This document shows positions 3,001 to 27,600 of a stretch of DNA of 64,000 bases, one piece after another; the first letter of the stretch is position 1; each line of letters opens with the position of its first letter. Below the pieces are notes generated by a model that had not been told where the DNA came from, ran no database searches, and saw nothing but the letters and a program-made list of their open reading frames with translations. The DNA is from Methanotrichaceae archaeon (GTDB lineage: Archaea; Halobacteriota; Methanosarcinia; Methanotrichales; Methanotrichaceae), in contig CAWEXU010000030.1 of assembly GCA_963813075.1 (NCBI GenBank), positions 1 to 64,000 on the forward strand, in the 5' to 3' direction. The position numbers and the translations under genes were made by a program.

Positions 3001-3076
3001 CCGGCAGATAGATGCCCTGGTCTACGAGCTTTATGGGCTGACGGAGGAGGAGATCGGGATTGTGGAAGGGAAATGA
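8..3076 (+). pseudogene. Type IIG (Eco57I/TaqI-like) fused restriction endonuclease-N6-adenine methyltransferase, broken by several frameshifts and stops
   Basis: Consecutive ORF fragments give N-terminal MPAPKEIVELVERF.., the nuclease motif PDY..F..ETK, methyltransferase motifs DPACGSG (~1201) and GNPPY (~1759), a TaqI-C-like specificity region, and C-terminal IDALVYELYGLTEEEI ending at TGA 3074-3076. Some breaks may be assembly errors. Confidence 0.9.
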
Positions 3077-3103
3077 ATCAACGCGAGCAAATAGGAGGTC
3101 AAG

Positions 3104-4032: not shown

Positions 4033-4281
4033 AGTGTGGGGGTGGGCCATGATCATTAATGATATTACTTCACCTCGCAGCCATTTGGCGCAGCCCATCA
4101 AAAGCATCCACCAGCTATCATTGAAGCCATGGAAAAAGGAGATCAAATAAAAGAAGATGACGGAAGTTCTGGCAATGAAAGGAAAGCAGATCGATATGAC
4201 TAATTATCTTGCAAATTCAAGAGCTATTCTTTTAATTATTCTTATAATATTTATAGAAGATGCACAAGGAGGAAAACTGAA

Positions 4282-5286: not shown

Positions 5287-5524
5287 AATCTAATCCGAAA
5301 ATTGGAGCTAATGACGCGAGTTAGAATGATTGCATAGCCCTAGTTCCGATGCCCGCGTGGCATAACTGCACAGTTGCGACTGATTGCATCAATAACAAGT
5401 CTGATCCCTGGAGCTAACGGCTATAGCAAATTATTTATTTTTATTATAATTTATACAATTAATTTCAAGGAATAGCCTATTCCCCCATTCTGTAATAAGA
5501 TGAAAATAAGTTCAAAGTTCAATT

Positions 5525-5935
5525 TTATCTCATATTGGCTAACACTGAGACATAGCCTAATTCATTGGCAAGTTCTTTAATGTCTTTCTCGGCTACTTCT
5601 ACAGATGCAGAGCCGTTATAGATTAGTGCGCCATAATCCGAGCGGATAACCTTCAAGCCGTTTGGATTGCTCCCCATTTGGACAATGCCCACATAGCTTC
5701 TCTCGATAAGATCTTCAAGCGCGCCTGAAAGAAATTCAGCCCTATTTGACGCTCCTTCCCCTTCAAAGGACACTACTTTTCCTTCAATAATTTCCTCATC
5801 CCTATCAAGATGAGCAATTTTAAACCCTAATAGTTTAAGAGAAAGCCATATCATGCGGCCTTCTGTTTTATCCATTCGTTCTACAGAAGCAATTACATGC
5901 AGCGAACTATTCCCAATTTGCTTTTTCTCTTCCAC
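5525..5935 (-). CDS. Hypothetical protein
   Basis: 136-aa ORF in AT-rich DNA with normal composition; no recognised family. Confidence 0.6.
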   Translation of the reverse strand: MEEKKQIGNSSLHVIASVERMDKTEGRMIWLSLKLLGFKIAHLDRDEEIIEGKVVSFEGEGASNRAEFLSGALEDLIERSYVGIVQMGSNPNGLKVIRSDYGALIYNGSASVEVAEKDIKELANELGYVSVLANMR

Positions 5936-6309
5936 TTAAAACCAACTCAATGTATTAATGCTATAACTACTACATAAGATTGTGCCTTAGACTTATGAAT
6001 TAATTCGCATAGCTCTAAACAATTGCATCTTCACTTCCAAAACTACCACCATCCCTTTTTCTTAATCACTTCTTCGCCGGGCTTGAGTGCAAATTGGCTG
6101 AAGCTTTGGTAGAGATGAACTATATGATCGCAAAGGAATGATTCAGCAAGCAGATTCTCACGAAAGCATGGTTGTTCATGGGATGCTGTGCACTTATTTT
6201 TTAATTATAATTCCATGAGCTGATATTAATGAATTATGCAGGATAGTTTTTAAAGCATTGATGGCTGCAAATGACGTAGATAATCCTTTGGTTATCGATA
6301 TTTTTATAT

Positions 6310-7032
6310 TTATCCAATTTCATAAAATAAAATAGTTGTGATTAGTGTAGCTATGATGAATATTCTCACAAGTTCAACTGATATTGTATCACTCGAAAAG
6401 AAGGTGTTATTGGGATCAATATAATCCAATATGGAAAATAAGATTGGAATAATAGGTAGTATTATTAAATATTTTATCTTTTCATTTTCATACCAATGAT
6501 TTATATGTATGGTAATCGATTGCTTATCAACTTGCCATATTCCTCCTTTGCTTTTATAACTTAAATTTAAAAATATTTTATGATCCCCTTCAGGTGCGTC
6601 ATCCGCAATCTTGAATGAGAACGACAATAATGGCCGTTTTAATCCATTATCCTCATTATATCTTTCTCCTACATTGCATAACGATGCTTGACCATTCGCA
6701 GGGTTTATCGTATATAACGCATTTGTAAAGAGTATTATCGGCAAGTCGATAAAAAGGGGTGGAGATAGTGCAGTTATAGTTTGAGGATTTCTGCTGTCAA
6801 TTCTTTGTGTAAATATAATATTTCCATCTATAATATATTCTGGAAGTGATATGGTAATTTTAGCATGAGAAACATCTCCTGCACCAGATATTTCAATGAC
6901 ACTATCAAAATTATCGCCCTTGCGCAAATGGGGATCATTTGCATGAATTAGTAGGGCATACGCTGGTTCTCCTTTAAATTCAGGAGATTTTACAGTATCC
7001 GCTATAATTTGCGGATCTAAATTTAGCTCCAT
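6310..7032 (-). CDS. Hypothetical protein with a beta-rich N-domain and two C-terminal TM helices
   Basis: 240-aa ORF in very AT-rich DNA; hydrophobic segments YLIILPIIPILFSIL and IFIIATLITTILFY. Confidence 0.7.
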   Translation of the reverse strand: MELNLDPQIIADTVKSPEFKGEPAYALLIHANDPHLRKGDNFDSVIEISGAGDVSHAKITISLPEYIIDGNIIFTQRIDSRNPQTITALSPPLFIDLPIILFTNALYTINPANGQASLCNVGERYNEDNGLKRPLLSFSFKIADDAPEGDHKIFLNLSYKSKGGIWQVDKQSITIHINHWYENEKIKYLIILPIIPILFSILDYIDPNNTFFSSDTISVELVRIFIIATLITTILFYEIG

Positions 7033-7084
7033 TTAATGATTTCATTAACGCTCTACCTTAATAAGTTTGTGATGATTATAAACA

Positions 7085-7136
7085 TGTCAACGTCGGGATA
7101 ACTGTCCAATTATGGCGGAATAAAACTGTCCAGTTC
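7085..7136. mobile_element. Orphan IS21-family-like terminal sequence
   Basis: TGTCAAC start followed by two copies of AACTGTCCA, the typical IS21 end layout; no istA/istB in the window. Confidence 0.55.
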
Positions 7137-7693
7137 TACTTAAGGCTTCTGCCCAGGGTAGTGTCCTGTTGATAAGATACAGAATATGCGAACATTTAAT
7201 TAGGTCGAATGTTCAAGGTACCTCACATAGGGATCGTATGAGAATTCTCTAAGAGGTAGGTACGCATGTCGTTCATTTGCAAAAAATTTTGTGGTTTGTT
7301 TCGCACGATATGGAAAAAATTTAGGCCACATCATAGTAATAATTGCCGCCGTTCGTCCCAGTCTAAATCGTATTCTACTCATTCCATATGTTCATCCACA
7401 GCGACTAAGGGCTTAAGCTATGCAGATCAATGCTATATGTTTAGTGATCGATGTAACGAAGAGTGACTAGATAGTTATTACAAGGTGACATCTAATGCAA
7501 AAATATAAGATTAATTTTATAATTTTTAAACCCAACAAGTTCAAAAACTTCAGAGAATCCCAACGTCTCTGACCATTTTGAGCAGCTTGCTTGAGGAGGT
7601 CAACTTTTTCTTCAAAACAAGTTGCATCTTCGATAAGTGATTTCAAGGACAGTCTCCACTACGATAAAACGGCTCTTGTATCTTCATAGCCTC

Positions 7694-8733
7694 TTTGCAG
7701 TCCTGAAATTATTTTGCGTCTGTCCTGATTTTATAGTGTTTAAATTATTCATATAATTTCACAACCCAAACAGTCTATGGCGAATTGCGAAATAAGCTTC
7801 CAAAGGCATTTTTCGCCTGAAAGCCCTTTTGGTAGTCTCCAGGCTTTGGAAATTCAAGCTTCCACGAGGTCTATCATTATACCAAGTGATAAACTCGTCG
7901 AATGAATGAAAAGTTGCCCTGTGCTTGACGTATTCTCCGAAAAAACGTTTTAGCTTTCCGTTCGTCTGAGGATGCTTCACTCTGGCTAATATGGGCTTGA
8001 TGCAAATTTTTTGAGGTGATCTTTGAATTCGCTGTTCCAGCTTCCGTTCCCGTGGATTCTGTGGGCTCCAAACTCGCTGCCATGATCGAGTATCAGATCC
8101 CTCATGGAACAGAGCCACCAGAATTTGTCCACCAATTGGTCGATTATCAGTATTCTGTTCTCTGTATTGATCTCGGTGAACTCCCCGCCAGCCAGCACCA
8201 TCCTGGATGCATCATCCAGAATTTTGCAAACCTTGACACAAGTCCCATCCCATTCATGCCAGTCGATATGCCCTGCTGACAGGCTGCGCTTTCGTTCATA
8301 GCGAATCCACTTCCGGCGCTTTTGTTTCTTCAGATCTTCATGGGCCAGACCTTCCGCTTTCAGGTACATTTGGATGCGATTATGTGATATGCAGATCTTA
8401 AATTGCTTCTGGATCACAGTCTCCAGCATTCGCGCTCCAATGCGGTAGCGAGCGTAGGCTGCTCGGATGAGACATCTGCTTCATTCTGAAAGTAGGGGTT
8501 TCGGGGGCGATCAACTTTTCGCCCTAAACAGGTTCTTGCCCGGTCTCTTTGTAATCTTTAATGATCTAGTGGACTCTCCCTTGTGGCACTTTGACATCCC
8601 GCGCAATCTCTTCTGTGGCTACACCTTTGCGGTTTTGACGAAGAATATAGCGAACCTTCGTCTTGTTCAATTTCATATCTTGGATTATGCGTCCAAGCTT
8701 AGATGATAGGCGAAATAATTTCGGGACTCTACA
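7694..8733 (-). mobile_element. Degenerate IS481-family insertion sequence
   Basis: Imperfect terminal inverted repeats 7694-7717 (tttgcagtcctgaaattattttgc) and 8710-8733 (reverse complement tgtagagtcccgaaattatttcgc) enclose a broken transposase. No target-site duplication is visible. Confidence 0.85.
7759..8676 (-). pseudogene. IS481-family DDE transposase, fragmented
   Basis: MKLNKTKVRYILRQ.. start at 8676; motifs GHIDWH, LDDASR, LDHGSEF, HPQTNGKLKRF and WYNDRP across three frames. Confidence 0.88.
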
Positions 8734-9408
8734 GGATAACTGAGAGAGGCCAGGAGATCCTGAAGATGAAACCTGGCCGGATCGATGTGAAATTCCTGGT
8801 GAAAAACGGCGATCCGGAATTCTGCCAGTTTCACCGGCCATCGAGGCAAAACGAGAACCATGATGATCCAGGCATCGATGCCGCTCGAACCCCACGAGAG
8901 ATCATGGATGCCGGTTATCAGGAGATGAGGTGGGATCTCTCTGGAGAGCTACTAAAGCGCATTAAGAGCGGCTCGCCACTATTCTTTGATCATCTGGTGG
9001 TGGAGCTGTTGGTGGCCATGGGTTATGGCGGCTCTCGCCAAGACACCGGAGAAGCCGTGGGCGGAAGCGGCGATGGCGGGATTGACGGCATCATCAAAGA
9101 GGACCGGCTGGGTTTGGATGCCATCTATCTGCAGGCCAAGAGATGGGAGGGAACTATTGGCAGGCAGGTGGTGCAGGCCTTTGCCGGGAGCCTGGAGGGG
9201 CATAGAGCCCGAAAAGGTGTGCTGATCACCACATCCCAATTCAGCCCGGATGCATTGGATTACGTCACCAGGATCGAGAAGAAGATCGTGCTGATTGACG
9301 GGGAGAAGCTTGCCGAGCTCATGATCGATTTTGGAGTCGGCGTGACAATTGACGTGACCTATGAGATCAAAAGGCTGGGTGCAGACTATTTTGAGGAGGA
9401 ATTTATAG
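8734..9408 (+). pseudogene. mrr: Mrr copy 2, 5'-truncated at the IS481 end
   Basis: Starts at RITERGQEILK directly after the IS end and keeps the full catalytic domain. An extra A in gaggaggaatttatag (copy 3 has gaggaggatttatag) removes the stop, giving an artefactual read-through to 9725. Confidence 0.88.
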
Positions 9409-9644
9409 GTCCTCTCACCTTGAAGTACGATCCCCGCCTGGGGCAGTGGTGGTGGCCACACAAGCCAATAGTGGCAGGTGGGCCAGGTGGTGGGCACGAC
9501 CCTGCTGGTGGAAGGATAAGGGCGATGGACTGGATTTTGGGCAAGCCTTCATTTTCACCTGGGCCCGGCTGGAGAATATCATATCAGATATATCTCAATC
9601 CAATCAACGGCTCACCTCGTTGTATCCAAGCCACCCCGGCGTTG

Positions 9645-9854
9645 AGGGGGCCCAGGGCACTCCCGCGGGAGGGCCGGAGGCCCGACTCGCGTCGCTCACA
9701 AAAAAAATGGTCCGCATGGTTCTGAATTAGTCTTGATAGACAGCTTGGATTCAACTACTCAAATATGATGACATTCGAGATCCTTAGATCCTCATCAAAG
9801 CAAAGTTCAAACTTTTAGCCGGGCCCGCCTGGCGAATTTTCGCTTTAATATATC
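9645..9854. repeat. Non-coding fold-back repeat X, copy A (longer, divergent)
   Basis: Shares agggggccc..ccggaggcccgactcgcgtcgctcac..agttcaaacttt..cccgcctg..atatc with 9900-10059 and 11136-11295. Confidence 0.8.
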
Positions 9855-9899
9855 GCAATGCAAAAACCATCAACGCCTAATTCCAATCTATTTGGCTTT

Positions 9900-10059
9900 A
9901 GGGGGCCCCCCGTTGTCCGCGTCCCGGAGGCCCGTCTCGTGTCGCCCACTAAAATAGTTTGCGTTGATTTAAATTAGCCATAACAACGGCCTGAATTTCT
10001 TTAAGCGCAGTTCAAACTTTGGCCTGAGCCCGCCTGAAGAATTTTTGCATTAAAATATC
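9900..10059. repeat. Non-coding fold-back repeat X, copy B
   Basis: 3' half is nearly identical to copy C; joined directly to mrr copy 3. Confidence 0.85.
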
Positions 10060-10489
10060 ACTCCTCTTTGAGCATCTGGTGGTGGAGCTGTTGGTGGCCA
10101 TGGGCTACGGCGGCTCTCGCCAGGACGCAGGAGAGGCGGTGGGCGGAAGCGGCGATGGCGGGGTGGACGGCATCATCAAAGAGGACCGGCTGGGTTTGGA
10201 CGCCATCTATCTGCAGGCCAAGAGATGGGAGGGAACTATTGGCAGGCAGGTGGTGCAGGCCTTTGCCGGGAGCCTGGAGGGGCATAGAGCCCGAAAAGGT
10301 GTGCTGATCACGACATCCCAATTCAGCCCGGATGCACTGGATTACGTCACCAGGATCGAGAAGAAGATCGTGCTGATTGACGGGGAGAAGCTTGCCGAGC
10401 TCATGATAGACTATGGAATCGGTGTGACAATTGACGTGAGCTATGAGATCAAAAGGTTGGATGCAGACTATTTTGAGGAGGATTTATAG
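10060..10489 (+). pseudogene. mrr: Mrr copy 3, catalytic domain only
   Basis: Nearly identical to 8985-9408; FEHLVVELL..EEDL* with an intact stop; no N-terminal domain. Confidence 0.88.
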
Positions 10490-10548
10490 AACTGCTCAGA
10501 GCATCAGCACCGAAAAATGCTTAACGAATTGGATTGAAGATTAGATAG

Positions 10549-10713
10549 ATGAATGCGAAAGTTACCGAGATGCCTGGAAAGAAAATGTTACCGCCAGAGG
10601 AGAATCCAAGAATAGTGGCAGGCACCCTGGAAGGAGAGTCTGAGATCAGAGCAGGTTTGGGAAAGCGATTTCGCAATGCAGATGAGTTTATAGATCATCT
10701 AGAGAAACTTTAG
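10549..10713 (+). CDS. Putative antitoxin (54 aa) of a RelE/ParE pair
   Basis: Hand-translated MNAKVTEMPGKKMLPPEENPRIVAGTLEGESEIRAGLGKRFRNADEFIDHLEKL*. The C-terminus resembles RelB-type antitoxins and ends 5 nt before the toxin. Not in the ORF track. Confidence 0.7.
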   Translation: MNAKVTEMPGKKMLPPEENPRIVAGTLEGESEIRAGLGKRFRNADEFIDHLEKL

Positions 10714-10718
10714 ATTCA

Positions 10719-10979
10719 ATGGCGTACATTCCGCGTTCATCGCCCCGCTTCGACAAGAACTTCAAGCGCCTGACCAAGAAGAACAGAGACCTGAAGGATA
10801 GGGTGCAAAAGAAGATCAGAGATATCCTGGAAAATCCCGAAATCGGAGAGACTTTAAGCAAGAGTTTAGCTGGTTATCGGAGTTGCCATGTAGGAAATTG
10901 GATCGTTATTTATAAAATAGTAGGCAAAGAAATTTGGTTTGTCAACTTTGATCACCATGATTATGCTTATGAAATATGA
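10719..10979 (+). CDS. RelE/ParE-superfamily toxin (mRNA interferase)
   Basis: 86 aa, basic; FDKNFKRL..ILENPEIGE.L...LAGYRSCHVGNWIVIYKI..F.HHD.AY pattern. Confidence 0.85.
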   Translation: MAYIPRSSPRFDKNFKRLTKKNRDLKDRVQKKIRDILENPEIGETLSKSLAGYRSCHVGNWIVIYKIVGKEIWFVNFDHHDYAYEI

Positions 10980-11037
10980 GACGTAAATGAGAGCATGCAG
11001 CAATATTAAGCAGATTCTGTAATCTTTAAATTTATCA

Positions 11038-11088
11038 ATTGATTGCACCGATCCCACTGATGTTACCCGCCACGATTCGCTAGTCTCG
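11038..11088 (+). pseudogene. Relic of the type IIG RM C-terminal segment
   Basis: Reads IDCTDPTDVTRHDSLVS versus IDFSDPADVARHDRMVS at 2855-2905. Confidence 0.65.
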
Positions 11089-11135
11089 ATCCAATCAACG
11101 ACTCACCTCGTTGTATCCAAGCCACCCCGGCGTTG

Positions 11136-11295
11136 AGGGGGCCCCTTTGCCCGCGGGCCGGAGGCCCGACTCGCGTCGCTCACAAAAAAATAGTTTGCGT
11201 TGATTTAAATTTGTCATAACCACGGCCAGAATTTCTTTAAGCGCAGTTCAAACTTTGGCCTGAGCCCGCCTGACGAATTTTTGCATTAAAATATC
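11136..11295. repeat. Non-coding fold-back repeat X, copy C
   Basis: 5' part and upstream leader (11091-11136) match copy A; 3' part matches copy B. Confidence 0.85.
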
Positions 11296-11505
11296 ACTCC
11301 TCTTTGAGCATCTGGTGGAGGAGCTATTGGTAGCCATGGGCTATGGCGGCTCTCGCCAGGATGCCGGAGAGTCAGTGGGCGGAAGCGGCGATGGCGGGGT
11401 TGACAGCATCATTAAAGAGGACCGGCTGGGATTGGACGCCATCTATCTGCAGGCCAAGAGATGGGAGAGAGAACTATTGGCAGGCAGGTGGTGCAGGCTT
11501 TTGCC
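11296..11505 (+). pseudogene. mrr: Mrr copy 4, internal fragment
   Basis: Same junction with repeat X as copy 3; GDGGVDSII..LQAKRW, ending at QAFA. Confidence 0.85.
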
Positions 11506-11599
11506 CACGCCTTATATTAGATAAAAAGAATTTGTTTTGTGATCTGCTGAACTTGACCAATACATTAAATATATTCAGCTATTAAGCATATCTGCCGGA

Positions 11600-12829
11600 A
11601 TGTCTATGGTAGTTGCATTACGTACAATGGATGGCAAGGTCAGGGTATACGAAACCGCTCGTGGAGAAGGCGGTGGGGAGAATGGGCCTAGCAAATATAT
11701 CACAAAATGCGGGATGGAATGGGAAACATCACCCGAGCCCTATGAATCATGTGATCACATCGACTGTGCTATTGATATACAAAGGAGAAGGGCCGATGGT
11801 GGGTCTAAGTTTTTTCTATTTTCTTTGGTGGCGAGCATCATTCTGTTTTTTATAATCAAAGATGGATGGGACTGGGTCATAGCAGGTGTTTTAATTTTAG
11901 TAGGTATCTTATCTTTTTTCAATAGTTTCGGTGCTGAAGACAAATCCAAAGAATTAACTGAGTACAATCACCAGAGGACAATTAATGGAATAAGAGCTTA
12001 TCCCGCGGATGTACTCACCGGATTGATGACAGAAAAAGATTGCATGAGTTACGGCCTTGTTCTTTGTGGTAAAGGCAGATATGAAGATGCCATAGAAGCT
12101 TTTGATAAGGCTATCAAGCTGAATCCCAGCTCTGCCGTGGCCTGGAATAATAAAGGCAACGCTCTAAAATTGCAGAATAAGCACGATGAAGCCATCATGG
12201 CTTTTGATAAGTCTGTTGAGTTGAATCCAAAATATACAGATGCCTGGAACAACAAAGGAATGGCCCTTTATGATCAGCATAAATATGATAAATCTATCCT
12301 AGCCTATGACACCGCCCTGGAAATAAAACCAAAGCTTGCGAAGGCCTGGTACAATAAAGGCTTGGCTCTCTGTAATCAGGGCAAATACCAAGAGGCTATT
12401 TGGGCCTATGATAAAGCCATTAAAAATGATTCGAAAAATATAGATGCCTTGTATAACAAAAGCATAACTCACAGGTCGCTCGGTCAAATCAAAGAAGCAG
12501 ACGAAACCTTAGACCTGGCTAAAAGAGAGCTGAACTGCAAAGGAGCGGAACTATCCAATAGCGAAAAGCATTTTGAGGCTATCCAAGCTTTTGATAAAGC
12601 CATAGGAATCGATCCAAAATTTTTATGTGCCTGGGTCAATAAGGGCATAACACTATCTAAAATGGGCCGGTTTGGGGAGGCGATCGAAGCGATAAATCAT
12701 GCCATTGAAATTAATCCGGAAAGCCCACGTGCCTGGAAATACAAAGGAATTATTCTCAAAAGAGCAGGTAGTAAGGTCGATTCAAAGCATGCTTTGGCCA
12801 GGGCCAGGGAGCTGGGGTATAAAGGCTAA
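11600..12829 (+). CDS. Membrane-anchored tetratricopeptide-repeat protein
   Basis: Two TM helices followed by multiple AWxNKG..L..A..AxDKA TPR units. Confidence 0.88.
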   Translation: MSMVVALRTMDGKVRVYETARGEGGGENGPSKYITKCGMEWETSPEPYESCDHIDCAIDIQRRRADGGSKFFLFSLVASIILFFIIKDGWDWVIAGVLILVGILSFFNSFGAEDKSKELTEYNHQRTINGIRAYPADVLTGLMTEKDCMSYGLVLCGKGRYEDAIEAFDKAIKLNPSSAVAWNNKGNALKLQNKHDEAIMAFDKSVELNPKYTDAWNNKGMALYDQHKYDKSILAYDTALEIKPKLAKAWYNKGLALCNQGKYQEAIWAYDKAIKNDSKNIDALYNKSITHRSLGQIKEADETLDLAKRELNCKGAELSNSEKHFEAIQAFDKAIGIDPKFLCAWVNKGITLSKMGRFGEAIEAINHAIEINPESPRAWKYKGIILKRAGSKVDSKHALARARELGYKG

Positions 12830-13382
12830 TATCAAGTCCCAGGCAGGCCAGCGCCGAAATCCACCGCGCCCTTGTAAGGAGGAGCCGATCACCGAAGTGA
12901 TGGCCTGACCCTGCCCGAAGCTCGACTTTGGTTAAGCCCGGCTCGAGGCTCGCTTAGCACTGGAATTTTGCCACAGCGTCCCAATTGCAGGAACCCAAAC
13001 TCACTGGGCCTAATGCTCGCCTCTCGCCTTTGGCTTTTTGCCGCAACATGTCCCGGTCGTGTATTAGCATGAGATCCTTTCGGCAGATTACTGCACCAGT
13101 TACAGTGCGCAACTTTTTTGCAGCCGAACTTTCAGTCTCACAGGCTCGTAGCCGAATGCAGTGCCACGACGACACGCATCTCCTGGAACAAGGAAAGCGA
13201 TCCGATCTGTATGCGACCGCAAACTGCACCCCCAGAGGGGACAGCGCTTGAATCATCCTTGCCAAACAGAGCATTATCGGAATACGTTAAGCCCACGACA
13301 CACCCGCCACCCTTTGCATGAAGCGGCAAACTATCTATATAATCGTTATAGATATTTGTAGTTTGCGGTTGGATTCTGAGCT
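12829..13382. repeat. Long direct repeat Y, copy 1 (~554 bp)
   Basis: Nearly identical to 15674-16226, from atatcaagtccc to ttctgagct. Confidence 0.95.
12835..13312 (-). ncRNA. Candidate large structured ncRNA, copy 1
   Basis: TATA box at 13335-13342 (minus strand); closing 5'/3' stem, several long-range stems and a c(UUCG)g hairpin; no convincing ORF. Confidence 0.6.
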
Positions 13383-13436
13383 TCGTATAAGATCCGAACG
13401 ATATCCATTTTAACCAAAGTTCACCTTAGTAAACAT

Positions 13437-13781
13437 ATGAGCGCTTCGAAGAAAGGAATGCCTCCACCGGTATCAGTATCAATAGGTGCAAAGATTGCGC
13501 CTGAACAGGCAGCGCAGATCCGGGAGCTGACCGAGGCGGGATTGTACCTTGACGAGTCCGATTTTGTCAGAGACGCCATCAGGCACAGACTGTATGAAAT
13601 CAAGGTCATCAAATGCAGAGAAGTCGATTTCCAGACGGCCAAGAAAGAGATCTTGGGGTACTACAAGGCCAGAGGGGAAGAGTATCCGGACGAGGCGGCA
13701 AGGGATCTTGAGCTTGATTTTGATCTGGTGATGAAAGCGACTGGCGAGCTGCGCCGAGAAGGCAGGCTGGTGGAAGCATAG
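13437..13781 (+). CDS. Ribbon-helix-helix (CopG-like) protein with a C-terminal HTH-like region
   Basis: IRELTEAGLYLDESDFVRDAIR is a typical archaeal CopG/RHH motif. Confidence 0.8.
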   Translation: MSASKKGMPPPVSVSIGAKIAPEQAAQIRELTEAGLYLDESDFVRDAIRHRLYEIKVIKCREVDFQTAKKEILGYYKARGEEYPDEAARDLELDFDLVMKATGELRREGRLVEA

Positions 13782-13926
13782 CGGCTGGCTTTGGTGATGC
13801 TCTGCATGCCTCGAAGATCTATGCTGAGGCCAGAAAGATATTTGGCCCGCGGGTGATGGTGAAGACTGGCAGGCACAAGGCTCTTTAGAGTAGATTTATA
13901 TCTGAAAAAGCAGAAATTGAAGACCA

Positions 13927-14154
13927 ATGAAACGCCTTTATGACTACACTGTAATCCTTCGCCCCGAAGACAATGGTACATTCGTGGCCTATGTACCTGC
14001 AATTCCTGGCTGCCATGCCTGGGGCCAGACCCCCCAGGAGGCTCAGATGGAGCTGACGAACGTCTTCGAGATGATACGGGATGAGTACAAAGAAGAAGGG
14101 CGCATGCTTCCCGCAGATATTGATGCGTTGGCTACTCATGCCTGCCAAAGCTAA
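13927..14154 (+). CDS. hicB: HicB-family antitoxin
   Basis: YTVILRPEDNGTFVAYVPAIPGCHAWGQTPQEA motif. Confidence 0.9.
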   Translation: MKRLYDYTVILRPEDNGTFVAYVPAIPGCHAWGQTPQEAQMELTNVFEMIRDEYKEEGRMLPADIDALATHACQS

Positions 14155-14353
14155 AGACCTGCAAAAAGCAGCCAGAAAACTTGGATTTCGAGTGGTAAGG
14201 CAAAAGGGCAGCCATGCCAGATGGAAACATCCCGATGGCCGAGCCACAACCATTCCCATACATGGCAATAGCGAGATTGGAGGCTGGCTTCTGTACGAAA
14301 TTTTAAAACAGCTTGAAATAACAGAAGAGGAATTCAGAAGGCTCTTGGAATAA
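14138..14353 (+). CDS. hicA: HicA-family toxin
   Basis: LGFRVVRQKGSHARWKHPDGR..TIPIH motif; overlaps the end of hicB. Confidence 0.92.
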   Translation: MPAKAKDLQKAARKLGFRVVRQKGSHARWKHPDGRATTIPIHGNSEIGGWLLYEILKQLEITEEEFRRLLE

Positions 14354-14529
14354 GGCGCGGTGCGCTAGAGACAGATGTCCCAACAGCAATCTACGCCCTC
14401 TGAGGAGTCTAATGGCAATCTCCGGCGCACACGAGTCTGCGAGCCGTCCGCGGACACGGGAGAGCCGTATGCAAACCCAAAAGTTTTTTAATAGATCATC
14501 CTGATAGAGACTGAGCATAGAGGGATCGA

Positions 14530-15159
14530 ATGAGATCGATTACAATCTTAGCGTTATTTTTGTTCCTGATAGGGCCATGCATCGCATATGCGGAAACAAT
14601 GGCCGAACCTGAGAATATCAGCATTTCAGGAGATGGCCAGGAAGCATCACAGGAGTTTTTCCTGGATGAAGGCCTGTCGATATTCTCCATGAAGCATTCT
14701 GGTTCGAGCAACTTCGCCGTCTGGCTGCTGGATAGCAGTGGTAATAAAGTCGATCTGCTGGCCAATGAGGTAGGGGATTTTGATGGCGCCAAGGCCGTAG
14801 GGATATCCCAATCGGATGACTATGTTTTGGATATAGATGCTGATGGTCCATGGATGGTGGATATAAGCCAACCAAGACCCGAGACTGCCCAAAGCGCTCC
14901 AGTCTCATTTAGCGGAACAGGACAACAAGTCCCCCCATTATTCGAGTTAGGCCCGGGACTGGCACGGTTCGAAATGGAGCATGATGGGGAGAGAAATTTT
15001 GCTATATGGCTGCTGGATAGCAATGGGGAGATGGTTGATCTCCTGGTAAATGAAATTGGCTCATTCGATGGATCAAAAGCAACAGGCATAGAAGATAGGG
15101 GAATATACTGCCTGGATATCAGCGCAGACGGCAATTGGAGGATAAATATCAGCCAATGA
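14530..15159 (+). CDS. Secreted acidic protein with two internal repeats
   Basis: Signal peptide; duplicated SGxGQ..H.G..NFA.WLLDS.G..VDLL.NE.G.FDG.KA unit. Confidence 0.85.
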   Translation: MRSITILALFLFLIGPCIAYAETMAEPENISISGDGQEASQEFFLDEGLSIFSMKHSGSSNFAVWLLDSSGNKVDLLANEVGDFDGAKAVGISQSDDYVLDIDADGPWMVDISQPRPETAQSAPVSFSGTGQQVPPLFELGPGLARFEMEHDGERNFAIWLLDSNGEMVDLLVNEIGSFDGSKATGIEDRGIYCLDISADGNWRINISQ

Positions 15160-15247
15160 ATAGACCGCCAAGCAGAAAGCCAGGGCTATTGAAAGCCGCG
15201 GCCCTGGCTATCAAGATCTAAATAGCAAGAATTACCAGGTAATATCT

Positions 15248-15400
15248 ATGGGCGAGGTTCCAGAGCGCCGGATCATAACCCAGGACATCCCTTACGACCG
15301 GGAGGAACCAAGCGGTGAGAGAGAGATCACCAGAGGACTTATGAGGCTCTCGCAGCACGCGCTATCTAAATATGTAGATAATGAGCCTGATATTTATTGA
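15248..15400 (+). CDS. Putative small antitoxin (50 aa)
   Basis: Hand-translated ..GLMRLSQHALSKYVDNEPDIY*; TGATG overlap with the downstream MazF-like start. Confidence 0.5.
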   Translation: MGEVPERRIITQDIPYDREEPSGEREITRGLMRLSQHALSKYVDNEPDIY

Positions 15401-15504
15401 TGAGAGGAAAGATCGTTGTAATCCCATTCCCTTTTACAAAATCGATTTTGAACCCAGATACCATAAATGGAGCTTTAGACCTGGCCAGCCATTATGCCCC
15501 ATAA
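15400..15504 (+). pseudogene. Truncated MazF/PemK-like toxin N-terminus
   Basis: MRGKIVVIPFPFT matches the PemK/MazF start (xGDIVLVPFPFT), then unrelated sequence and a stop. Confidence 0.55.
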
Positions 15505-15679
15505 CTCCTGAAATATGGATAAGAAGGAGGGAGGCAAAAGTCAATTGGATGTAGGAGGGAAAAATGGCCATCGACTTTCGCCAATATACTATACGTCAAT
15601 TGCCGATATAAAAGCATTTCGCTTCAGGCTGAAAAGATCATTTCCACCCCAAAGAAATCATCAAGAGAATGAGATATCA

Positions 15680-16156
15680 AGTCCCAGGCGGGCCAGCGCC
15701 GAAATCCACCGCGCCCTTGTAGGAGGAGCCGATCACCGAAGTGATGGCCTGACCCTGCCCGAAGCTCGACTTTGGTTAAGCCCGGCTCAAGGCGACGTTA
15801 GCACTGGAATTTTGCCACAGCGTCCCAATTGCAGGAACCCAAACTCACTGGGCCTAATGCTCGCCTCTCGCCTTTGGCTTTGTGCCGCAACATGTCCCGG
15901 TCGTGTATTAGCATGAGATCCTTTCGGCAGATTACTGCACCAGTTACAGTGCGCAACTTTTTTTGCAGCCGAACTTTCAGTCTCACAGGCCCGTAGCCGA
16001 ATGCAGTGCCACGACGACACGCATCTCCTGGAACAAGGAAAGCGATCCGATCTGTATGCGACCGCAAACTGCCCCCCGGAGGGGACAGCGCTTGAATCAT
16101 CCTTGCCAAACAGAGCATTATCGGAATACGTTAAGCCCACGACACACCCGCCACCC
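15680..16156 (-). ncRNA. Candidate large structured ncRNA, copy 2
   Basis: Stems 16140-16152/15687-15701 and 16113-16120/15855-15862; UUCG hairpin at 15732-15745; UCCG hairpin near 16069-16088. Confidence 0.6.
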
Positions 16157-16178
16157 TTTGTATGAAGCGGCAAACTAT

Positions 16179-16186
16179 CTATATAA
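16179..16186 (-). promoter_or_regulatory. Archaeal TATA box (TTATATAG) upstream of the candidate ncRNA; same element at 13335-13342
   Basis: About 30 nt upstream of the predicted 5' G run; embedded in a palindrome. Confidence 0.55.
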
Positions 16187-16316
16187 TCGTTATAGATATT
16201 TGTAGTTTGCGGTTGAATTCTGAGCTCTGGCGAAAGCTATTACTTCACCAGGTGCGACAGAGAGAGGGCCTGGCCTTCAAGATATCCTGAGCAGGCCGAG
16301 AGGGAGATAGGGAAAA

Positions 16317-16490
16317 TTGGCTAAGAAAAGGAAGAAGAATGACGCCATCATGACCGGCATCCTGGTTACCCGGTTCCAGATGGGCCAGATCAGTGTGGTG
16401 GACCTGGAGCAGATGGCAGCAGATACCTCCCGGGCGGAGAGGTGCTCGGCGGCGAAGAAGGTGCTGGAAGCGATTGAGGATTCTGCCTGA
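16317..16490 (+). CDS. Small hypothetical protein (57 aa)
   Basis: Hand-translated from TTG: MAKKRKKNDAIMTGILVTRFQMGQISVVDLEQMAAD..EDSA*; GC-rich codons like the core genes. Confidence 0.5.
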   Translation: MAKKRKKNDAIMTGILVTRFQMGQISVVDLEQMAADTSRAERCSAAKKVLEAIEDSA

Positions 16491-16499
16491 TCGTGCCGC

Positions 16500-16850
16500 A
16501 GACGGATGTGATGAGAGCACAAGGGCCAAATTTTGGACCTATCGATCACGGGCACCATTTTTCCTGCAGCAATTCCTGAGCATCCGCATGCATCAGCTTA
16601 TAATCGTAGGAAATCCGGCCGGCAAAGATGTCGAGGGTGTGACTTCCCTTGATTGCAACCCTGTCCAAGCCCAGACTACATACCTCTTCTCCAGTTGCAA
16701 ACGCCTCGAAACCAGAGCTCTTGGCAGCTTCAAGGAGCCTGGCCTTGCTTCAGCATCCCTGCAGACCAGATCGATGTCCTTGGTCACGTCCTTAAGGCCG
16801 TACTCCAGCATGGCTGCTCCACCAGGCCAATATCTTGCAGCCTGGTTATG
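16500..16850 (-). pseudogene. Nucleotidyltransferase (DUF6036-like) remnant
   Basis: GGAAMLEYGLKDVTKDIDLVC motif (GG..D.D); frames are broken and limits approximate. Confidence 0.55.
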
Positions 16851-16905
16851 ATCCGGGAGACAGAGCCCTTTAAGATGTATAATTTCAATTACATACTAAA
16901 AACGA

Positions 16906-16978
<73 letters not shown>

Positions 16979-16984
16979 TGGAAG

Positions 16985-17058
16985 TGGGCCCGACGCGATT
17001 CGAACGCATGACCTCCGCCATGTCAAGGCGACGTCATAACCAGCTAGACCACGGGCCC
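16985..17058 (-). tRNA. tRNA-Val(GAC)
   Basis: Cloverleaf GGGCCCG..TTGACAT..GTTCGAATC..CGGGCCCA. Confidence 0.96.
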
Positions 17059-17195
17059 GCAAGCAGGTTTCCTATCCTCTCCTCGCAGATAAAGGCTTCG
17101 GTCAGGCAGAAAGGGGGCGCGCAGGGGAATAATCCCGCCGGGGCGAGAATGCATACTGCCCGCCATCCCTCCCAACTCCGCCCTACCCGCATGTT

Positions 17196-20100
17196 TCAGG
17201 TGTAATAGACCTCCCGGTGATACTCGTCCAGGGCCTTGATGGTGACCTGATCCTTCCCGGCGAGGAGAATGGCATCAGCCGCCGCCTGCGCCGCCTGGAT
17301 GGTGGTGATATAGGGCACATGATAGTCCACTGCGCTCCGCCGGATCTGATAGCCGTCTTTGACCGACTGCTTGGTGGTGGGGGTGTTTATGATCAGCTTC
17401 ACCTCCCCCCGTTTCATGTAGTCCAGCACATTGGGGCTGCCGTTATAGATCTTCTGCACTCTCTCCACCTTTATTCCCGATTTTGAGAGATACTCGGCGG
17501 TATTGTCCGTGGCGATTATCTCCAGGCCGGCGTCAGTGAGCTTTCTCGCCGCCACCGCCGCCGCCGCCTTGTCCTCGTCTTTGACCGATATGAAGACCAC
17601 TCCCCCCAGGGGCAGGGGATTGTAGGCGGACAGCTCCGCCTTGAAGAAGGCCAGCCCCAGCTGGTAGTCTATGCCCATCACCTCTCCCGTGGACCTCATC
17701 TCCGGGCCCAGGAGGGCATCCGCCCCGGGCAGCTTATCGAATGGCAGCAGAACCTCTTTGACTGCCACATAGGGCACCTTGGGCTCCCTGGTGTACCCCT
17801 GCTCGGCCAATGATTTGCCGATCATCACATTGGCGGCGATCTTGGCCAGGGGCAGGCCGGTGGCCTTGGAGACGAAAGGTATGGTCCGGCTGGAGCGGGG
17901 GTTGGCCTCCAGCACATAAACCGTGCCGTCCTTGTAGGCCATCTGCAGGTTCACGATTCCGATCACACCAAGACCCAGAGCGATCTTGCGCACGTAGTCC
18001 CGCACCACCTCTAAGACGACGCCGGGCAATGTCTGGGGCGGTATCATGCAGGCGCTGTCGCCCGAATGAATGCCCGCCTCCTCGATATGCTCCATGATCG
18101 CCCCGATCAGAACATCCGTCCCGTCGCAGACGGCATCCACATCTATCTCCACCGCATCCTGCAGGAAGTCGTCGATCAGAACCGGATGCTCCCGCGAGAC
18201 CCGCACCGCCTCCTGCATGTACACGTCCAGGCCCTTCTCGTCATATACGATCTCCATCGCCCTGCCCCCAAGAACGTAGCTGGGCCGGACCAGGACTGGA
18301 TAGCCAATCCTGGACGCCACCTCCCGCGCCTCCGCCGGTGAGAAGGCAATGCCTGCATCAGGCTGGGGGATGTTCAGCCTGGTCATGAGATCATTGAACC
18401 TCTCCCGGTCCTCAGCCAGGTCGATGCTGTCGGGCGAGGTGCCCAGAATCCTGCGTCTTCAGCCCCAGGCGGGCGATCTCCTTTTCCAGAGGGAGGGCCA
18501 GGTTTATGGCCGTCTGGCCGCCGAACTGGACCATCAGGCCGTAAGGCTCCTCCTTCTCGATGATGTTCATCACATCCTCCAGGGTGACCGGCTCGAAGAA
18601 GAGCTTGTCCGAGGTATCATAATCGGTGGAGACGGTCTCCGGATTGTTATTGACGATATGGGCTTCGATTCCCTGCTCCCGCAGGGCCATCACCGCATGA
18701 ACGGTGCAGTAGTCGAACTCTATCCCCTGGCCGATCCGGATGGGACCCGAGCCCAGGATCAGAACCTTCTTTCGGCCGGATGGCACCAGCTCGCACTCCG
18801 TATCATAGGATGAGTAGTAATAGGGGGTGGTGGCCTGGAACTCCGCAGCGCAGGTATCCACCATCTTGAAGGTGGGAATTATCCCCAGGGATCGGCGCAG
18901 ATCGGCTATCTCCTCCCGGCTCCGCCCCACCAATGCCCCGATCTGCTCATCGGTAAAGCCCGTCCTCTTCGCCCGGCGCAGGATATCCGGATCCATAATA
19001 GAACCCAGATCCTGAGCCTGATTCGGACCCAGATCCTTACCCAGACCTGGACCCTTAGCCCGCCTTATCTCCTCCTCCATCCGAACGATATTCTCAATCC
19101 GGTAGAGGAAATAGGGCCCAATGCCGGTGATATCCGCGATCTCCTCGGGACTGGTTCCCCTCTTCAGAGCCTCATAGATGGCAAACAGTCGGTCGTCTGT
19201 GGGATTTACCAGCAGATCCCGCAGCTCCTCGTCCGTCCAGGGGGAATACTTTCCCTTGTATCCGAAATCCTTGTCGATATCCAAAGACCGGACGGCCTTC
19301 AAGAGCGACTCCTCGTAGCTCCTGCCGATGGCCATCACCTCGCCGGTGGACTTCATGGCGGTGGTCAGAGTCTTGTCCGCCCGGACGAACTTGTCAAAAG
19401 GCCAGCGGGGGATCTTGGTCACCACATAATCCACCATCGGCTCGAATGATGCCGGCGTCTCCCGGGTGACATCGTTTCTGATCTCATCCAGGGTCATGCC
19501 GATGGCGATCTTGGCAGTGACCCTGGCTATCGGATAGCCGGTGGCTTTGGAGGCCAGGGCGCTGGAGCGGGAGACACGGGGGTTGACCTCAATCACCCGG
19601 TACTCGCCGTCCTTTGCCGCGAACTGGATGTTGCAGCCCCCCTCGATCTTCAGAGCGCGAATGATATTGATGGCCGCGCTCCTGAGCATCTGGATCTCAT
19701 GGTCGGTGAGGGTCTGGATGGGGGTCACCACTATCGACTCGCCAGTATGAATCCCCATGGGGTCCATGTTCTCCATATTGCAGATGGTGATGCAGGTGTC
19801 ATTGCTGTCCCTCATCACCTCATACTCCAGCTCCGTCCAGCCCCCCACGCTTTCTTCGAGGAGTACCTGGCTGATCCTGGACCTCTTCAGCCCCAGGTCG
19901 CAGATCTGAATGAGCTCCTCCCGGGTCTTGGCTATCCCCCCACCCGAGCCGCCCAAGGTATAAGCGGGCCTGACCACCAGGGGCAGACCAAGCTCCTCCA
20001 TAACCTCCAAAGCCTCATCCAGAGTGTTGACCGCCCGGCTCTCAGGCACCGGCTCGCCCACCCTCTGCATGGCCTGCTTGAACAGGTCCCGGTCCTCCGC

Positions 20101-24687: not shown

Positions 24688-27600
24688 TTATGGTGTCCTT
24701 CCGATGTTGACCGCAGGCCTAGCCACCATCACCAAATCCCGCAGCTCATATCCCTGGCCCAATGCGCTATCGTAGGCATTGGCAGGGGCGTGCTTTCCGT
24801 CTCTGACATATGCATAGACCTTGTAGATGCCAGCATCAGTGGGAGCACTGGCCCAGGTCCACTGATTCTTGACAGACCAGCTCTGCACTACCCTCCAGAC
24901 ATTGCCGGTGGAGGGGCCCTTCAGCCAGAACTGATACTGCAGGGGATCCTTTTCCGCATCAAGTGCAGTGGCGGTCCACCTTACCGCCGTCCCGGCCCCT
25001 TGCGGGCTGGGGCGGTCGGCCTTCAGTGCAGTCAGAACCGGCGGCTGATTGGATATCAGCTGGAAGGATGAGCCCAATGCGCTATCGTACCCGGTGTCAG
25101 GGTAATGCCAGCCGTCTCTGGCATAGACGTAGACCGTGTAAACTCCGCCGTCGTTGGGCATGCTGGTCCAGGTCCACTGGTTGGCCAGGGACCAGTCCTG
25201 GGCTATCTGCCAGACATTGTCGGTGGAGGGGCCTTTCAGCCAGAAGCGGTAGTATACCGGATCTTTATCCGCGTCGATCGCCGTAGCCGTCCACTTGATA
25301 GGAGTGCCAGCGCCCTGGGGGCTGGTTCGGTCGGCCTTCAGTGCGGTCAGCACCGGCTGCTGGTTGGGGGCCAGGATGAAGGGTGCCCCCACTGCGCTAT
25401 CATATCCGGTCTCAGGGTTATGCCGGCCATCTCTGACATAGACATAGACGGTATAAGCTCCGCCATCGGACGGCAGGCTGGCCCAGGTCCACTGATTCCG
25501 GTAAGACCAGTCCTGCACTATCTTCCAGCTGTTTGCTGTAGAGGGACCCTTCAGCCAGAACCGGTAAAGCAGCGGCTCCATATCCGGATCCGATGCAATT
25601 GCCGTCCAGGTCACGGGGATTCCCGCCTTCACAGAGCTGGGCTTGTCTGATCCAAGAGAGATCAGATTGGGGGGCAGATTCTGCCGCAGCACTGTGAACA
25701 GCGCTCCAGCATCATCGTCCCATCCGGCCGGGCTGGCATGGAGGCCATCCCTCACCTGCAGCTTGATCTCACTGGTGCCCGCATCAGCAGGCGTTGTCGG
25801 CCAGGTCCAGGTCGGATCGGTGGACCAGTCACGCACCACTCGCCAGAAGCCGCCAGTTGAGGGGCCTCTCATCCAGTACCTGAAGAAGAGCGGATTGCCC
25901 TCCGGGTCGCTGGCGGTGGCCGCCCATCTGATGGTAGCGCCCACTGGCTGTGCGCTGGGCAGATTTGTGCCCAGGCTGGTGATTACAGGAGGCAGGTTCA
26001 GATTCATGATGAAGAAGCTGCCCACCTGATAGTCATCCGAGTAGGCAGGTCCGGAGTGCTTGCCGTCCCTGACTGCTACCAGAACCTCGCTGTAGCCGAC
26101 GTCAGCAGGCGTGGTCCTCCAGATCCACTGGTTATTCTTTCCCCAGCCGGTCATGTCCACCCAGAATCCGCGGGTGGCGGGACCGCGCAGGAAGAACCTA
26201 TACTGCAGGGGGTCTCCGTCCGGATCTGCGGCAATGGCCGTCCATTTGATCCAGCTTCCTGCATACTGCGGCTCGGGCCGGTCAGTGTACAGGACCTGCA
26301 CTCTAGGCGGCAGATTGGCGCCGGTCAGGCTAAAGGTGACGGTCTTCATAACGTCATAGCCGCCAGGACCGGAATGCTCTCCATCCCTGATCCAGACCTC
26401 AACCTCATACTTGCCGGCAGGATAGCCGAGGGTGTTCCAGGTCCAGACACTTCTGCTGCTGTAGCCGGTGTCCAGGTTGACTCCCGGTCCCCTCACCAGG
26501 AATCTGTACTGGAGAGGATCGAGGTCGTCTGCCCTGGCCGTCCAGATGATCGGGGTACCAGACCTCTGGGGGCTGCTCTTGTCCGGGATCAATGTGGGAT
26601 TGGCAGGCAACGGATTCCAGTTGCCGAAGTCCTTTCCAGCCACGCTGGGAGTGGATGCATCCAGGGTGACGGTAAATGAGCCACTCGCCGGTGCCTTCTG
26701 CTCCCATCCAGGCTGCTGAATCTCCCGGATGGTATAGGTTCCAGTAGCGACATCCGTGAAGCTGTAAGATCCGTCAGCCTCGGTGGTGGCAACCGCTATA
26801 ACTCCTCCAGCGGCCGGCTCCAGGTTGATCTTCCAGCCGCCCATTCCAGGCTCGCCTGGATCCCTGGCCCCGTTGCCGTTGGTGTCGCTGTACTTCACTC
26901 CGGAGATGGATTGGGCACCCAGTCTATTCCCGAAGTCGTTGTTCTTAGCCTCCCTGGGAGGTACTCTTACATCGAAGACTATGCTGTGGCTTCCCGCCGC
27001 CGGAGCGGTCTGGGTCCAGCCAGTCCTCGAGGTCTCGCTAACCTTGTAGCTGCCCGGAAGCAGCCTCTCGAACTTGTAGTTGCCGTTATTGTCCGTGGTG
27101 GCGGTAAGAGCGGGAAGCGGCTTGCCATACCAGGTGCTTCCGGTCAGGACCATCTCCCAGCCGGGCAGCCCCTTCTCACCGGTGTTCTTGATGCCGTCGC
27201 CATTCAGATCCTCGTATTTCACTCCCGAGATGACGTTGGCCCCGCATAACCCGAAGTTCGCATTGGTGACCACAACGGTCTTGACGGTCACGGTAATGGT
27301 GGACGAGGTAGTCAGGACCAGTCCTGCCGGCACGGGATCGTTTATGGTGTAGGTCCCGGGCAGGACGTTCTCGAAGCTGTACAATCCGTTCTCATCGGTG
27401 GTGGTATTGGCTACAACCTTGCCGCTTTCGACCAGGCTCACTGCCCCACCGGGAATGCCGGGCTCATCCTCATCCTGCAGGCCGTTGCCGTTGATGTCAT
27501 AATACTTCTGGCCGGATATGGATAGGCCGCCGCTGTTGGCAAAGTCCTTGCCGAGAACATCGGCATCTTTGAGTTCCACCGCCCAGGGGCCTTCAGGCGC

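What the first reader, a model, noticed from the sequence alone, without database searches (positions are those of the whole stretch)
15674..16226. Duplicated ~470-nt highly structured, promoter-bearing non-coding RNA candidate (repeat Y) in a defence island
Seen: a ~553-bp segment is repeated almost exactly at 12829-13382 and 15674-16226 and has no credible ORF (indels between the copies change the predicted ORFs). On the minus strand a TTATATAG box lies ~30 nt before a G-rich start. By-eye pairings in copy 2: closing stem GGCGGGU-GUGUCG (16152-16140) with CGGCGC-ug-GCCCGCC (15701-15687); long-range UAAUGCUC/GAGCAUUA, UUUGGC/GCCAAA and UGGGC/GCCCA; GCAAGGA-UGAUUC/GGAUCG-cuu-UCCUUGU; hairpins CUGUCCCC(UCCG)GGGGGCAG, AUGC-GUGUC..GGCAC-u-GCAU, CC(GAAA)GG and AUCAC(UUCG)GUGAU; UGUGAGA/UCUCAUG. 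Two differences between the copies are Watson-Crick to wobble changes (GCCCGCC vs GCCUGCC; GGCUacgAGCC vs GGCUacgGGCC). I cannot match it to RNase P, SRP, group I/II intron or omegaRNA consensus. Inference: an unclassified large archaeal ncRNA (ribozyme-sized or scaffold-like) that travels with defence and TA cargo.
Basis: partly seen in the sequence, partly recalled or inferred. Interest (0 to 1): 0.88.

Follow-up and report, generated by a model that had tools for sequence, protein, structure and literature searches.

The report
Abundant multicopy structured RNA in Methanothrix
The repeat is a gene for a roughly 500-base folded non-coding RNA that acetate-using methane-producing archaea keep in several copies; it is very deeply covered in environmental RNA libraries, matches no catalogued RNA family, and carries two look-alike heads with transfer-RNA-type loops, but its job is not yet known.

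Summary
The repeat is real (97.5% identical) and a sister genome shares the duplication. The genome has five members. Covariance models find the family in 82 of 104 Methanotrichaceae genomes and 0 of 77 other genomes of the class. No Rfam match. Tree-aware counts support a fold with a variable 5' domain and two homologous stalked four-way-junction heads with T-loop-type loops; single-pair significance was weak. Metatranscriptome contigs pile up on the RNA and stop at the promoter (contigs only, no strand). Defence/TA linkage is local, not general. A second, anti-Shine-Dalgarno-type small RNA follows 60 of 140 copies. Best guess: a dispensable, trans-acting structural RNA that engages tRNA-binding or translation machinery (mechanism about 0.35). 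Two earlier reports of this scan describe what is probably the same family on other DNA.

The parts
15676..16175 (-). Large RNA, copy 2 (500 nt, inferred ends)
   Evidence: Promoter geometry; RNA contig depth confined to 15716-16185 and a head-to-tail joint 16175/15677 in one contig; family alignment
16176..16214 (-). Family-specific promoter of copy 2: BRE 16212-16206, TATA-like 16205-16198, conserved ATAA-N3-TTAT palindrome 16193-16183
   Evidence: Most positions 80-98% conserved in 86 copies; the weight matrix hits only 4 sites in the genome, all family members; coordinates
15883..16172 (-). Domain A: variable multibranched 5' domain closed by P1 (16172-16163 with 15892-15883)
   Evidence: P1 has 5 compensatory events; hairpin 15952-15937 is compensated at 5 of 5 pairs; domain-wide 0.32 events per pair versus null 0.07
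15778..15880 (-). Domain B: stalk with four-way-junction head; arms B1 15853-15837, B2 15836-15823, B3 15822-15802; B2 and B3 loops are T-loop-like
   Evidence: 9 of 15 pairs change on both sides versus 3.1 in shuffles; loop consensus; most conserved part across genera
15676..15770 (-). Domain C: terminal stalk with a second four-way head homologous to B; UUCG hairpin 15748-15728
   Evidence: a profile of the B head scores 139 of 161 C domains (median 10.5 bits) and 0 shuffles
12831..13331 (-). Large RNA, copy 1
   Evidence: 97.5% identical to copy 2; ends by homology
13332..13370 (-). Promoter of copy 1
   Evidence: Identical to that of copy 2
15523..15582 (-). Second, small hairpin RNA with CCCUCC (anti-Shine-Dalgarno-like) in its loop and 3' tail
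   Evidence: Alignment of 92 sequences; folding z -5.4; follows 60 of 140 large-RNA loci, precedes 1 of 141; an X2 contig of depth 433 covers it
15606..15622 (-). BRE/TATA promoter of the small RNA
   Evidence: Conserved in the alignment; coordinates
16317..16490 (+). Divergent 57-aa ORF of no known family, occasional neighbour
   Evidence: Within 130 nt of 11 of 141 loci, in several genera; found in 28 of 74 family genomes; atlas hits below 0.9
13437..15159 (+). Cargo between the two copies: 114-aa ORF, HicB, HicA, 209-aa putative secreted protein
   Evidence: Pfam; same arrangement in sister genome G005

Best explanation
Shown or strongly supported (about 0.9): a stand-alone, non-coding RNA gene family of Methanotrichaceae. 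Each copy has its own dedicated promoter and makes a ~400-520-nt RNA folded into a variable 5' domain and two stalked four-way-junction heads that arose by internal duplication. Copies multiply as DNA cassettes, because promoter and often a downstream small RNA are copied too. Routes include tandem duplication and carriage on integrative elements. The family is dispensable in some lineages. Inferred (about 0.35): the RNA acts in trans as an abundant structural RNA, and its most conserved part, the head with two T-loop-type loops, forms a tRNA-elbow-like or elbow-binding surface. It thereby binds or buffers tRNA-handling proteins, tRNAs or ribosomes, perhaps together with the linked anti-Shine-Dalgarno small RNA, to tune translation in these slow-growing archaea.
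For: Family-wide presence with sharp, shared boundaries. 60 same-branch compensatory events over 56 pairs in a sequence-only alignment of 161 members, versus 0.31 +/- 0.07 per pair in 300 re-pairings. Strand asymmetry. Indels not in frame. Unique conserved promoter. Summed contig depth 3e4-1.4e6 over the RNA in X1 and X2, against at most 454 in the bins left of 15622, at most 1903 at the tRNAs and 0-1 in the promoter bin; in X7 a single 482-nt contig covers 15721-16150 and almost nothing beside it. B3 loop 7 nt in 62 of 69, with A at position 5 in 59 and U at 7 in 58; B2 loop 8 nt in 63 of 69, with UNNRA at positions 3-7 in 51. [quoted passage not shown] Same upstream or downstream gene kept at some loci across species and genera (Hsp20, deacetylase, DUF1699). 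Small RNA tail matches the genome's 16S 3' end.
Against: No binding or function was tested. The strict U at T-loop position 1 holds in only 35 of 62 B3 loops (UNNRA 29 of 62). The two loops are on adjacent arms and may not reach each other. The head has no sequence likeness to the genome's 36 called tRNAs (best 2 bits), and ARAGORN calls none. My stricter pair-by-pair test found 1 of 161 and 0 of 139 significant pairs. RNA evidence is contigs only, summed over relatives at 85% identity or more, from runs chosen because they hold the RNA, with no strand and no DNA control. The small RNA has no special complementarity to the large one (-47.8 versus -47.1 kcal/mol), is absent from 80 of 140 loci, and 10 of its 11 full-length copies in G000 are not beside this locus.
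Confidence: 0.45

Rival explanations
1. An OLE/ROOL/GOLLD-like scaffold that oligomerises (RNA-only cage or small RNP) through loop contacts. The T-loops serve internal or intermolecular packing, not tRNA-related binding.
For: Size, several multiway junctions, high abundance, no fixed protein partner. Conserved 3' half and variable 5' half, as described for GOLLD; ROOL and GOLLD form cages (bioRxiv 10.1101/2024.12.08.627333, passages).
Against: No pseudoknot or kissing pair stood out in a scan of the 3' half. No Rfam similarity to those families. Not mainly phage-borne: 1 viral-collection hit, none among annotated phages.
Confidence: 0.27
2. A selfish or formerly selfish catalytic RNA, such as a degenerate group II intron-like or circular retro-element, spread by a reverse transcriptase in trans.
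For: Multicopy. A large closed 5' domain. A bulged base 7 nt from the 3' end, A in 76 of 115 scorable members. One head-to-tail junction. Branch-point and domain resemblance is recalled knowledge.
Against: No domain V match in the genome (RF00029) or any group II model on 21 members. Only a sub-threshold RT match in the genome. An external promoter and downstream cassette are copied with it, which RNA-level mobility would not do. It interrupts no gene in the loci examined. The terminal stem was not scorable in 46 of 161. A tRNA shows the same kind of junction in another run, so it may be a ligation product.
Confidence: 0.13
3. An antitoxin or anti-virus decoy RNA working with neighbouring toxin-antitoxin or restriction genes.
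For: In this window it lies in an island with Mrr, a methylase, ParE and HicAB. PemK neighbours in 3 loci, Mrr in 2. One copy on a viral-collection contig with a ParA-type ATPase and an integrase.
Against: About 5 of 150 neighbour clusters are defence-like. Many copies sit among housekeeping genes at conserved places.
Confidence: 0.1
4. A DNA-level repeat (MITE or mobile promoter) whose transcript is incidental.
For: The promoter is more conserved than most of the RNA. Multicopy with varied neighbours.
Against: Compensatory changes and G-U strand asymmetry point to selection on RNA. No terminal inverted repeats of 25 nt or more. Very deep, bounded RNA cover.
Confidence: 0.05

Closest known systems
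Large ornate orphan RNAs of bacteria and phages: ROOL, GOLLD, OLE (PMC5737381 passages; bioRxiv 10.1101/2024.12.08.627333 passages; PMC3413148 listing only)
   Same: Several hundred nucleotides, multiway junctions, high abundance, unknown function, conserved 3' and variable 5' part (as GOLLD)
   Different: Archaeal, one family only, 1 to about 12 dispersed copies per genome each with a dedicated promoter, internally duplicated head, no Rfam similarity, no pseudoknot shown, not tied to prophage tRNA islands
T-loop-bearing tRNA mimics and elbow binders (RNase P, T-box, L1 stalk, viral tRNA-like structures; PMC4810234)
   Same: 7-nt loop closed by G-C with A5 and U7, next to a short arm with a second UNNRA motif
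   Different: No anticodon or CCA end, no D-loop GG, no ARAGORN or Rfam call, no sequence likeness to the genome's tRNAs; interdigitation untested; the genome has a normal RNase P RNA elsewhere
Group II introns and ORF-less derivatives (features recalled)
   Same: Large closed 5' domain; frequent bulged A seven bases from the 3' end
   Different: No domain V, no GUGYG start, no exons, own promoter
For the small RNA only: multicopy CU-rich anti-Shine-Dalgarno sRNAs such as Listeria LhrC (listing and abstract start) and alphaproteobacterial cuckoo/CcsR (recalled)
   Same: Multicopy hairpins exposing CCUCC
   Different: No Rfam hit; archaeal; often placed directly behind the large RNA

Membership tests
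Any Rfam 15 family (RNase P, SRP, tmRNA, ROOL, GOLLD, OLE, HEARO, DUF3800 motifs, ribozymes) | Covariance-model score at or near the gathering threshold | tested here: not met
   No hit in the window at gathering, none at E<=10 on 15600-16300; only scattered sub-threshold hits on 20 diverse loci
Group II intron | Domain V with catalytic triad, followed by domain VI | tested here: not met
   RF00029 finds nothing in the genome or on members
Group II intron | GUGYG 5' end and flanking exons | tested here: not met
   Starts GUUUGCCG directly behind a promoter; lies between genes in the loci examined
Group II intron | Bulged branch-point A near the 3' end | tested here: inconclusive
   A in 76, other bases in 39, not scorable in 46 of 161
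tRNA / tmRNA | Cloverleaf with anticodon and CCA end, or tag ORF | tested here: not met
   ARAGORN calls nothing inside the element in 17 loci; head profile versus 36 tRNA calls, best 2 bits
T-loop motif | Pentaloop with U1 and A5, purine at 4, closing pair | tested here: inconclusive
   Sequence signature: B2 UNNRA 51 of 63; B3 A5 59 of 62, YNNRA 46, UNNRA 29; three-dimensional geometry not testable
Interdigitated double T-loop (elbow-binding platform) | Two T-loops intercalating head to tail | not testable with these tools
   Needs a structure or mutational binding test
ROOL/GOLLD-like cage RNAs | RNA-only oligomeric nanocage | not testable with these tools
   Needs mass photometry or cryo-EM
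Type III toxin-antitoxin or defence RNA | Fixed linkage to a cognate toxin or defence gene | tested here: not met
   263 neighbours in 200 clusters; about 5 of 150 scanned are defence-like
omegaRNA/HEARO or bridge RNA of IS elements | Fixed linkage to TnpB/IscB/IS110 gene | tested here: not met
   IS605 OrfB-type neighbours in 2 of 150 clusters; no Rfam hit
Protein-coding gene | Conserved reading frame | tested here: not met
   89 of 775 indels in frame; the two internal ORFs scanned have no Pfam match
MITE | Terminal inverted repeats and target-site duplication | tested here: inconclusive
   No inverted repeat of 25 nt or more at the ends; short target duplications were not searched systematically

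The most novel reading that the evidence does not exclude
A first archaeal large RNA that works on the translation apparatus: a very abundant, multicopy RNA whose tandem heads present tRNA-elbow-like or elbow-binding double T-loops, paired in a cassette with an anti-Shine-Dalgarno small RNA. Together they would form an RNA-only system for parking or buffering ribosomes and tRNAs in acetoclastic methanogens, a domain that by common knowledge (recalled) lacks tmRNA and 6S RNA.
Probability: 0.2. Interest if true: 0.95.

Novelty: categorically new. Interest (0 to 1): 0.8.

Why it matters
Large ornate non-coding RNAs have repeatedly turned out to be ribozymes or novel RNA machines, and the described orphan classes are bacterial or phage-borne. 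This family is archaeal, ribozyme-sized, supported by covariation, kept in up to about a dozen copies, and very deeply covered in digester and sludge RNA libraries. Its hosts are a main route of methane from acetate (recalled). The corrected ends, domain model and 161 diverse members make probing, cryo-EM and pull-downs directly possible. In practice it may also absorb many unassigned reads in anaerobic-digester metatranscriptomes.

Tried and rejected
Single-sequence folding gave no signal. Raw mutual information was swamped by the split into two subfamilies. A home-made R-scape-like test had little power or too strict a null: 1 of 161 and 0 of 139 pairs. RNAalifold on the raw 3' alignment gave a poor fold because of gap columns. 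DUF1699 as obligate partner: upstream of 20 of 141 loci, but in both orientations, not beside the G000 copies, and present in RNA-negative genomes G063 (3 copies) and G069 (10). The 57-aa ORF as obligate partner: not found with this query in G005 or 9 other genus members. Derivation from tRNA-Leu: no sequence support. Base-pairing of small with large RNA: at chance. Mis-assembly: rejected, G005 has the same tandem pair and G031 one copy at that site. Members outside the family: bacterial pattern hits L214, L227, L229 score as chance; L216 (a 2.9-kb contig in a bacterial bin, possibly mis-binned) and L202 are true members; the G283 hit is partial and weak; the G063 hit (E 0.005) lies in an open frame read by eye. 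No match in plasmids or annotated phages, and none for the first viral pattern. A Fur-family gene exists, but the likeness of the promoter palindrome to Fur/PerR boxes is recalled and untested. Copy 1 was not in the stretch on which reads were laid. Absence of cover in flanks is only a weak hint. Runs X15-X22 and low shares were not used.

Full report
Observation. The two segments are 97.5% identical over 555 columns. Rfam gives no match in the window, at E<=10 on copy 2, or inside the element on 20 diverse homologous loci. Folding energy alone is unremarkable (z -0.13 and -0.17 for the two strands). The duplication is not an assembly error: sister genome G005 has the same pair around the same HicAB cassette, with one copy truncated, and G031 has one copy at that site.

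Family. G000 holds five members. BLAST found matches, some only partial, in 36 of 36 genomes of the genus and 0 of 24 of other families. From the loci fetched I kept 86 distinct full-length copies out of 96 merged hits; mean identity is 68%, minimum 41%, and the boundaries are shared. A covariance model of the 3' half hit 53 of 74 family genomes and 0 of 76 others in the class. In a phylum draw it gave one weak partial hit among 150. A model of the conserved head hit 82 of 104 family genomes in 12 of 16 genera and 0 of 77 others. Near-complete genomes G063 and G069 lack a credible hit, so the RNA is dispensable in some lineages. A pattern scan of the species collection gave 84 matches. Of the 80 listed, 75 carry Methanothrix, Methanosaeta, Methanotrichaceae or Methanosarcinales titles, which names the host group. 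One member lies on a viral-collection contig beside a ParA-type ATPase and a tyrosine integrase.

Promoter and ends. The 39 bases upstream of 16175 are more conserved than most of the RNA. They hold a BRE at -37, a TATA-like box at -30 and an ATAA-N3-TTAT palindrome. A weight matrix finds only four sites in the genome, all family members; the fifth copy has a variant promoter. This places the start at 16175 and the end near 15676, giving 500 nt. Because promoter and downstream cassette are copied with the RNA, spread is at the DNA level (inference).

Expression. Fourteen RNA runs hold part of the stretch; four from four studies were laid on 14400-17200. In X1 and X2 summed contig depth is 3e4 to 1.4e6 over 15716-16185, against at most 454 left of 15622, at most 1903 at the tRNAs, and 0-1 in the promoter bin. 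X3 shows the same shape at lower depth. X7 has one 482-nt contig over 15721-16150. One X2 contig (depth 61.5) joins 16175 back to 15677 with four extra letters; a tRNA shows a like joint in X1, so this marks ends better than it proves a circle. Limits: contigs only, no strand, depth summed over relatives at 85% or more, runs chosen as holders, no DNA run laid. The tool warns that such depth cannot rank genes.

Structure. Consensus folding of the two subfamilies (47 and 20 sequences) gives the same plan: domain A closed by P1, then two stalks each capped by a four-way junction. In a sequence-only alignment of 161 3' halves, 56 proposed pairs carry 60 same-branch compensatory events, 1.07 per pair, against 0.31 +/- 0.07 (maximum 0.54) in 300 re-pairings. 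G-C pairs change C>U 253 times and G>A 134 times, while unpaired columns show equal rates, which selects the minus strand. Domain A gives 0.32 versus 0.07 and 0.32 versus 0.14. The pair-count tool agrees (36 of 63 pairs versus 22.9; 9 of 15 versus 3.1), though its shuffles ignore kinship. Against: my pair-by-pair test passed only 1 of 161 and 0 of 139 pairs, and the structure was chosen by looking at these same sequences. Only 89 of 775 indels are in frame.

The heads. A profile of head B scores 139 of 161 C domains and no shuffles, so the two heads are an internal duplication. The B3 loop is 7 nt in 62 of 69 diverse members, closed by G-C, with A5 in 59 and U7 in 58. The B2 loop is 8 nt in 63 of 69, with UNNRA in 51. 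These fit the T-loop described in PMC4810234 (abstract and passages), but B3 has the strict U1 in only 35 of 62, and there is no likeness to real tRNA sequences.

Context. There is no fixed protein partner: 263 neighbours form 200 clusters; 150 clusters were scanned and about 5 are defence-like and 6 mobile. DUF1699 and a 57-aa orphan ORF recur (20 and 16 of 141 loci) but are not obligate. The most frequent companion is another RNA: a ~60-nt hairpin with its own promoter and two CCCUCC motifs, whose end lies within 400 nt downstream in 60 of 140 loci (57 of them at 125-178 nt) and upstream in 1 of 141. Its exact tail occurs in 34 of 34 genus genomes, 46 of 74 family genomes and 2 of 76 others, and it matches the 16S 3' end. 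It also stands alone.

Mechanism. Shown: gene, promoter, strand, fold, distribution. Supported with caveats: high expression and ends. Inferred: action in trans through the conserved heads on tRNA-binding or translation machinery (about 0.35). Rivals: a packing or cage role (0.27), a selfish ribozyme (0.13), a defence RNA (0.1), a DNA repeat (0.05). RNase P RNA exists elsewhere in the genome; SRP RNA elsewhere was not checked.

Literature. Nine searches returned no paper describing this RNA; I saw listings and abstract starts, and passages of three papers. The library lacks most subscription journals, and no supplements were read; supplementary motif tables of RNA-discovery papers could hold it. 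Sequence and place look-ups in this scan's notes were empty. A word search, made after my reading was formed, showed two earlier reports of an abundant ~460-500-nt multicopy RNA in Methanothrix. They are probably this family, though I could not compare sequences, and they are not independent support.

Verdict. A real, apparently undescribed large archaeal ncRNA family with a companion small RNA; function open. Interest 0.8.

Noticed in passing
window 15523-15622 (-); G000 C30:89450-89845 and seven further sites: Separate multicopy ~60-nt hairpin sRNA family with two anti-Shine-Dalgarno-like CCCUCC motifs and its own promoter; 11 copies in the genome including a tandem trio; no Rfam hit at gathering level
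   Followed up: partly
window 16317-16490 (+): 57-aa orphan ORF conserved at 62-95% identity in 28 of 74 family genomes, often divergent from the RNA promoter
   Followed up: partly
window 16168-16212: The promoter is near-palindromic, so a mirror BRE/TATA-like arrangement lies on the + strand; it could drive the divergent ORF. Read by eye; not conserved in distant members
   Followed up: no
window 36-16950: Island beside tRNA-Phe/tRNA-Val with a fragmented restriction-modification gene, several Mrr copies or fragments, ParE, HicAB and an antitoxin/PemK-like remnant at 15249-15440 (remnant read by eye)
   Followed up: partly
window 24688-33700: A 2022-aa repeat-rich surface-type protein, with ~294-nt repeats running on to 33300 whose spacings (293-296) are not all multiples of three, suggesting frameshifts or assembly errors
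   Followed up: no
L274 (30.6-kb viral-collection contig): Family member on an element with a ParA-type ATPase and a tyrosine integrase
   Followed up: partly
G000:C31:3078-3563 (L096): Weak reverse-transcriptase-like match inside a 1910-aa open frame
   Followed up: no
window 16985-17058: An RNA contig in X1 joins the CCA end of tRNA-Val to its 5' end
   Followed up: no
G069, G072, G024: DUF1699 is multicopy (7-10 per genome, tandem in G069) and repeatedly sits beside the RNA promoter in G024 and G072
   Followed up: partly
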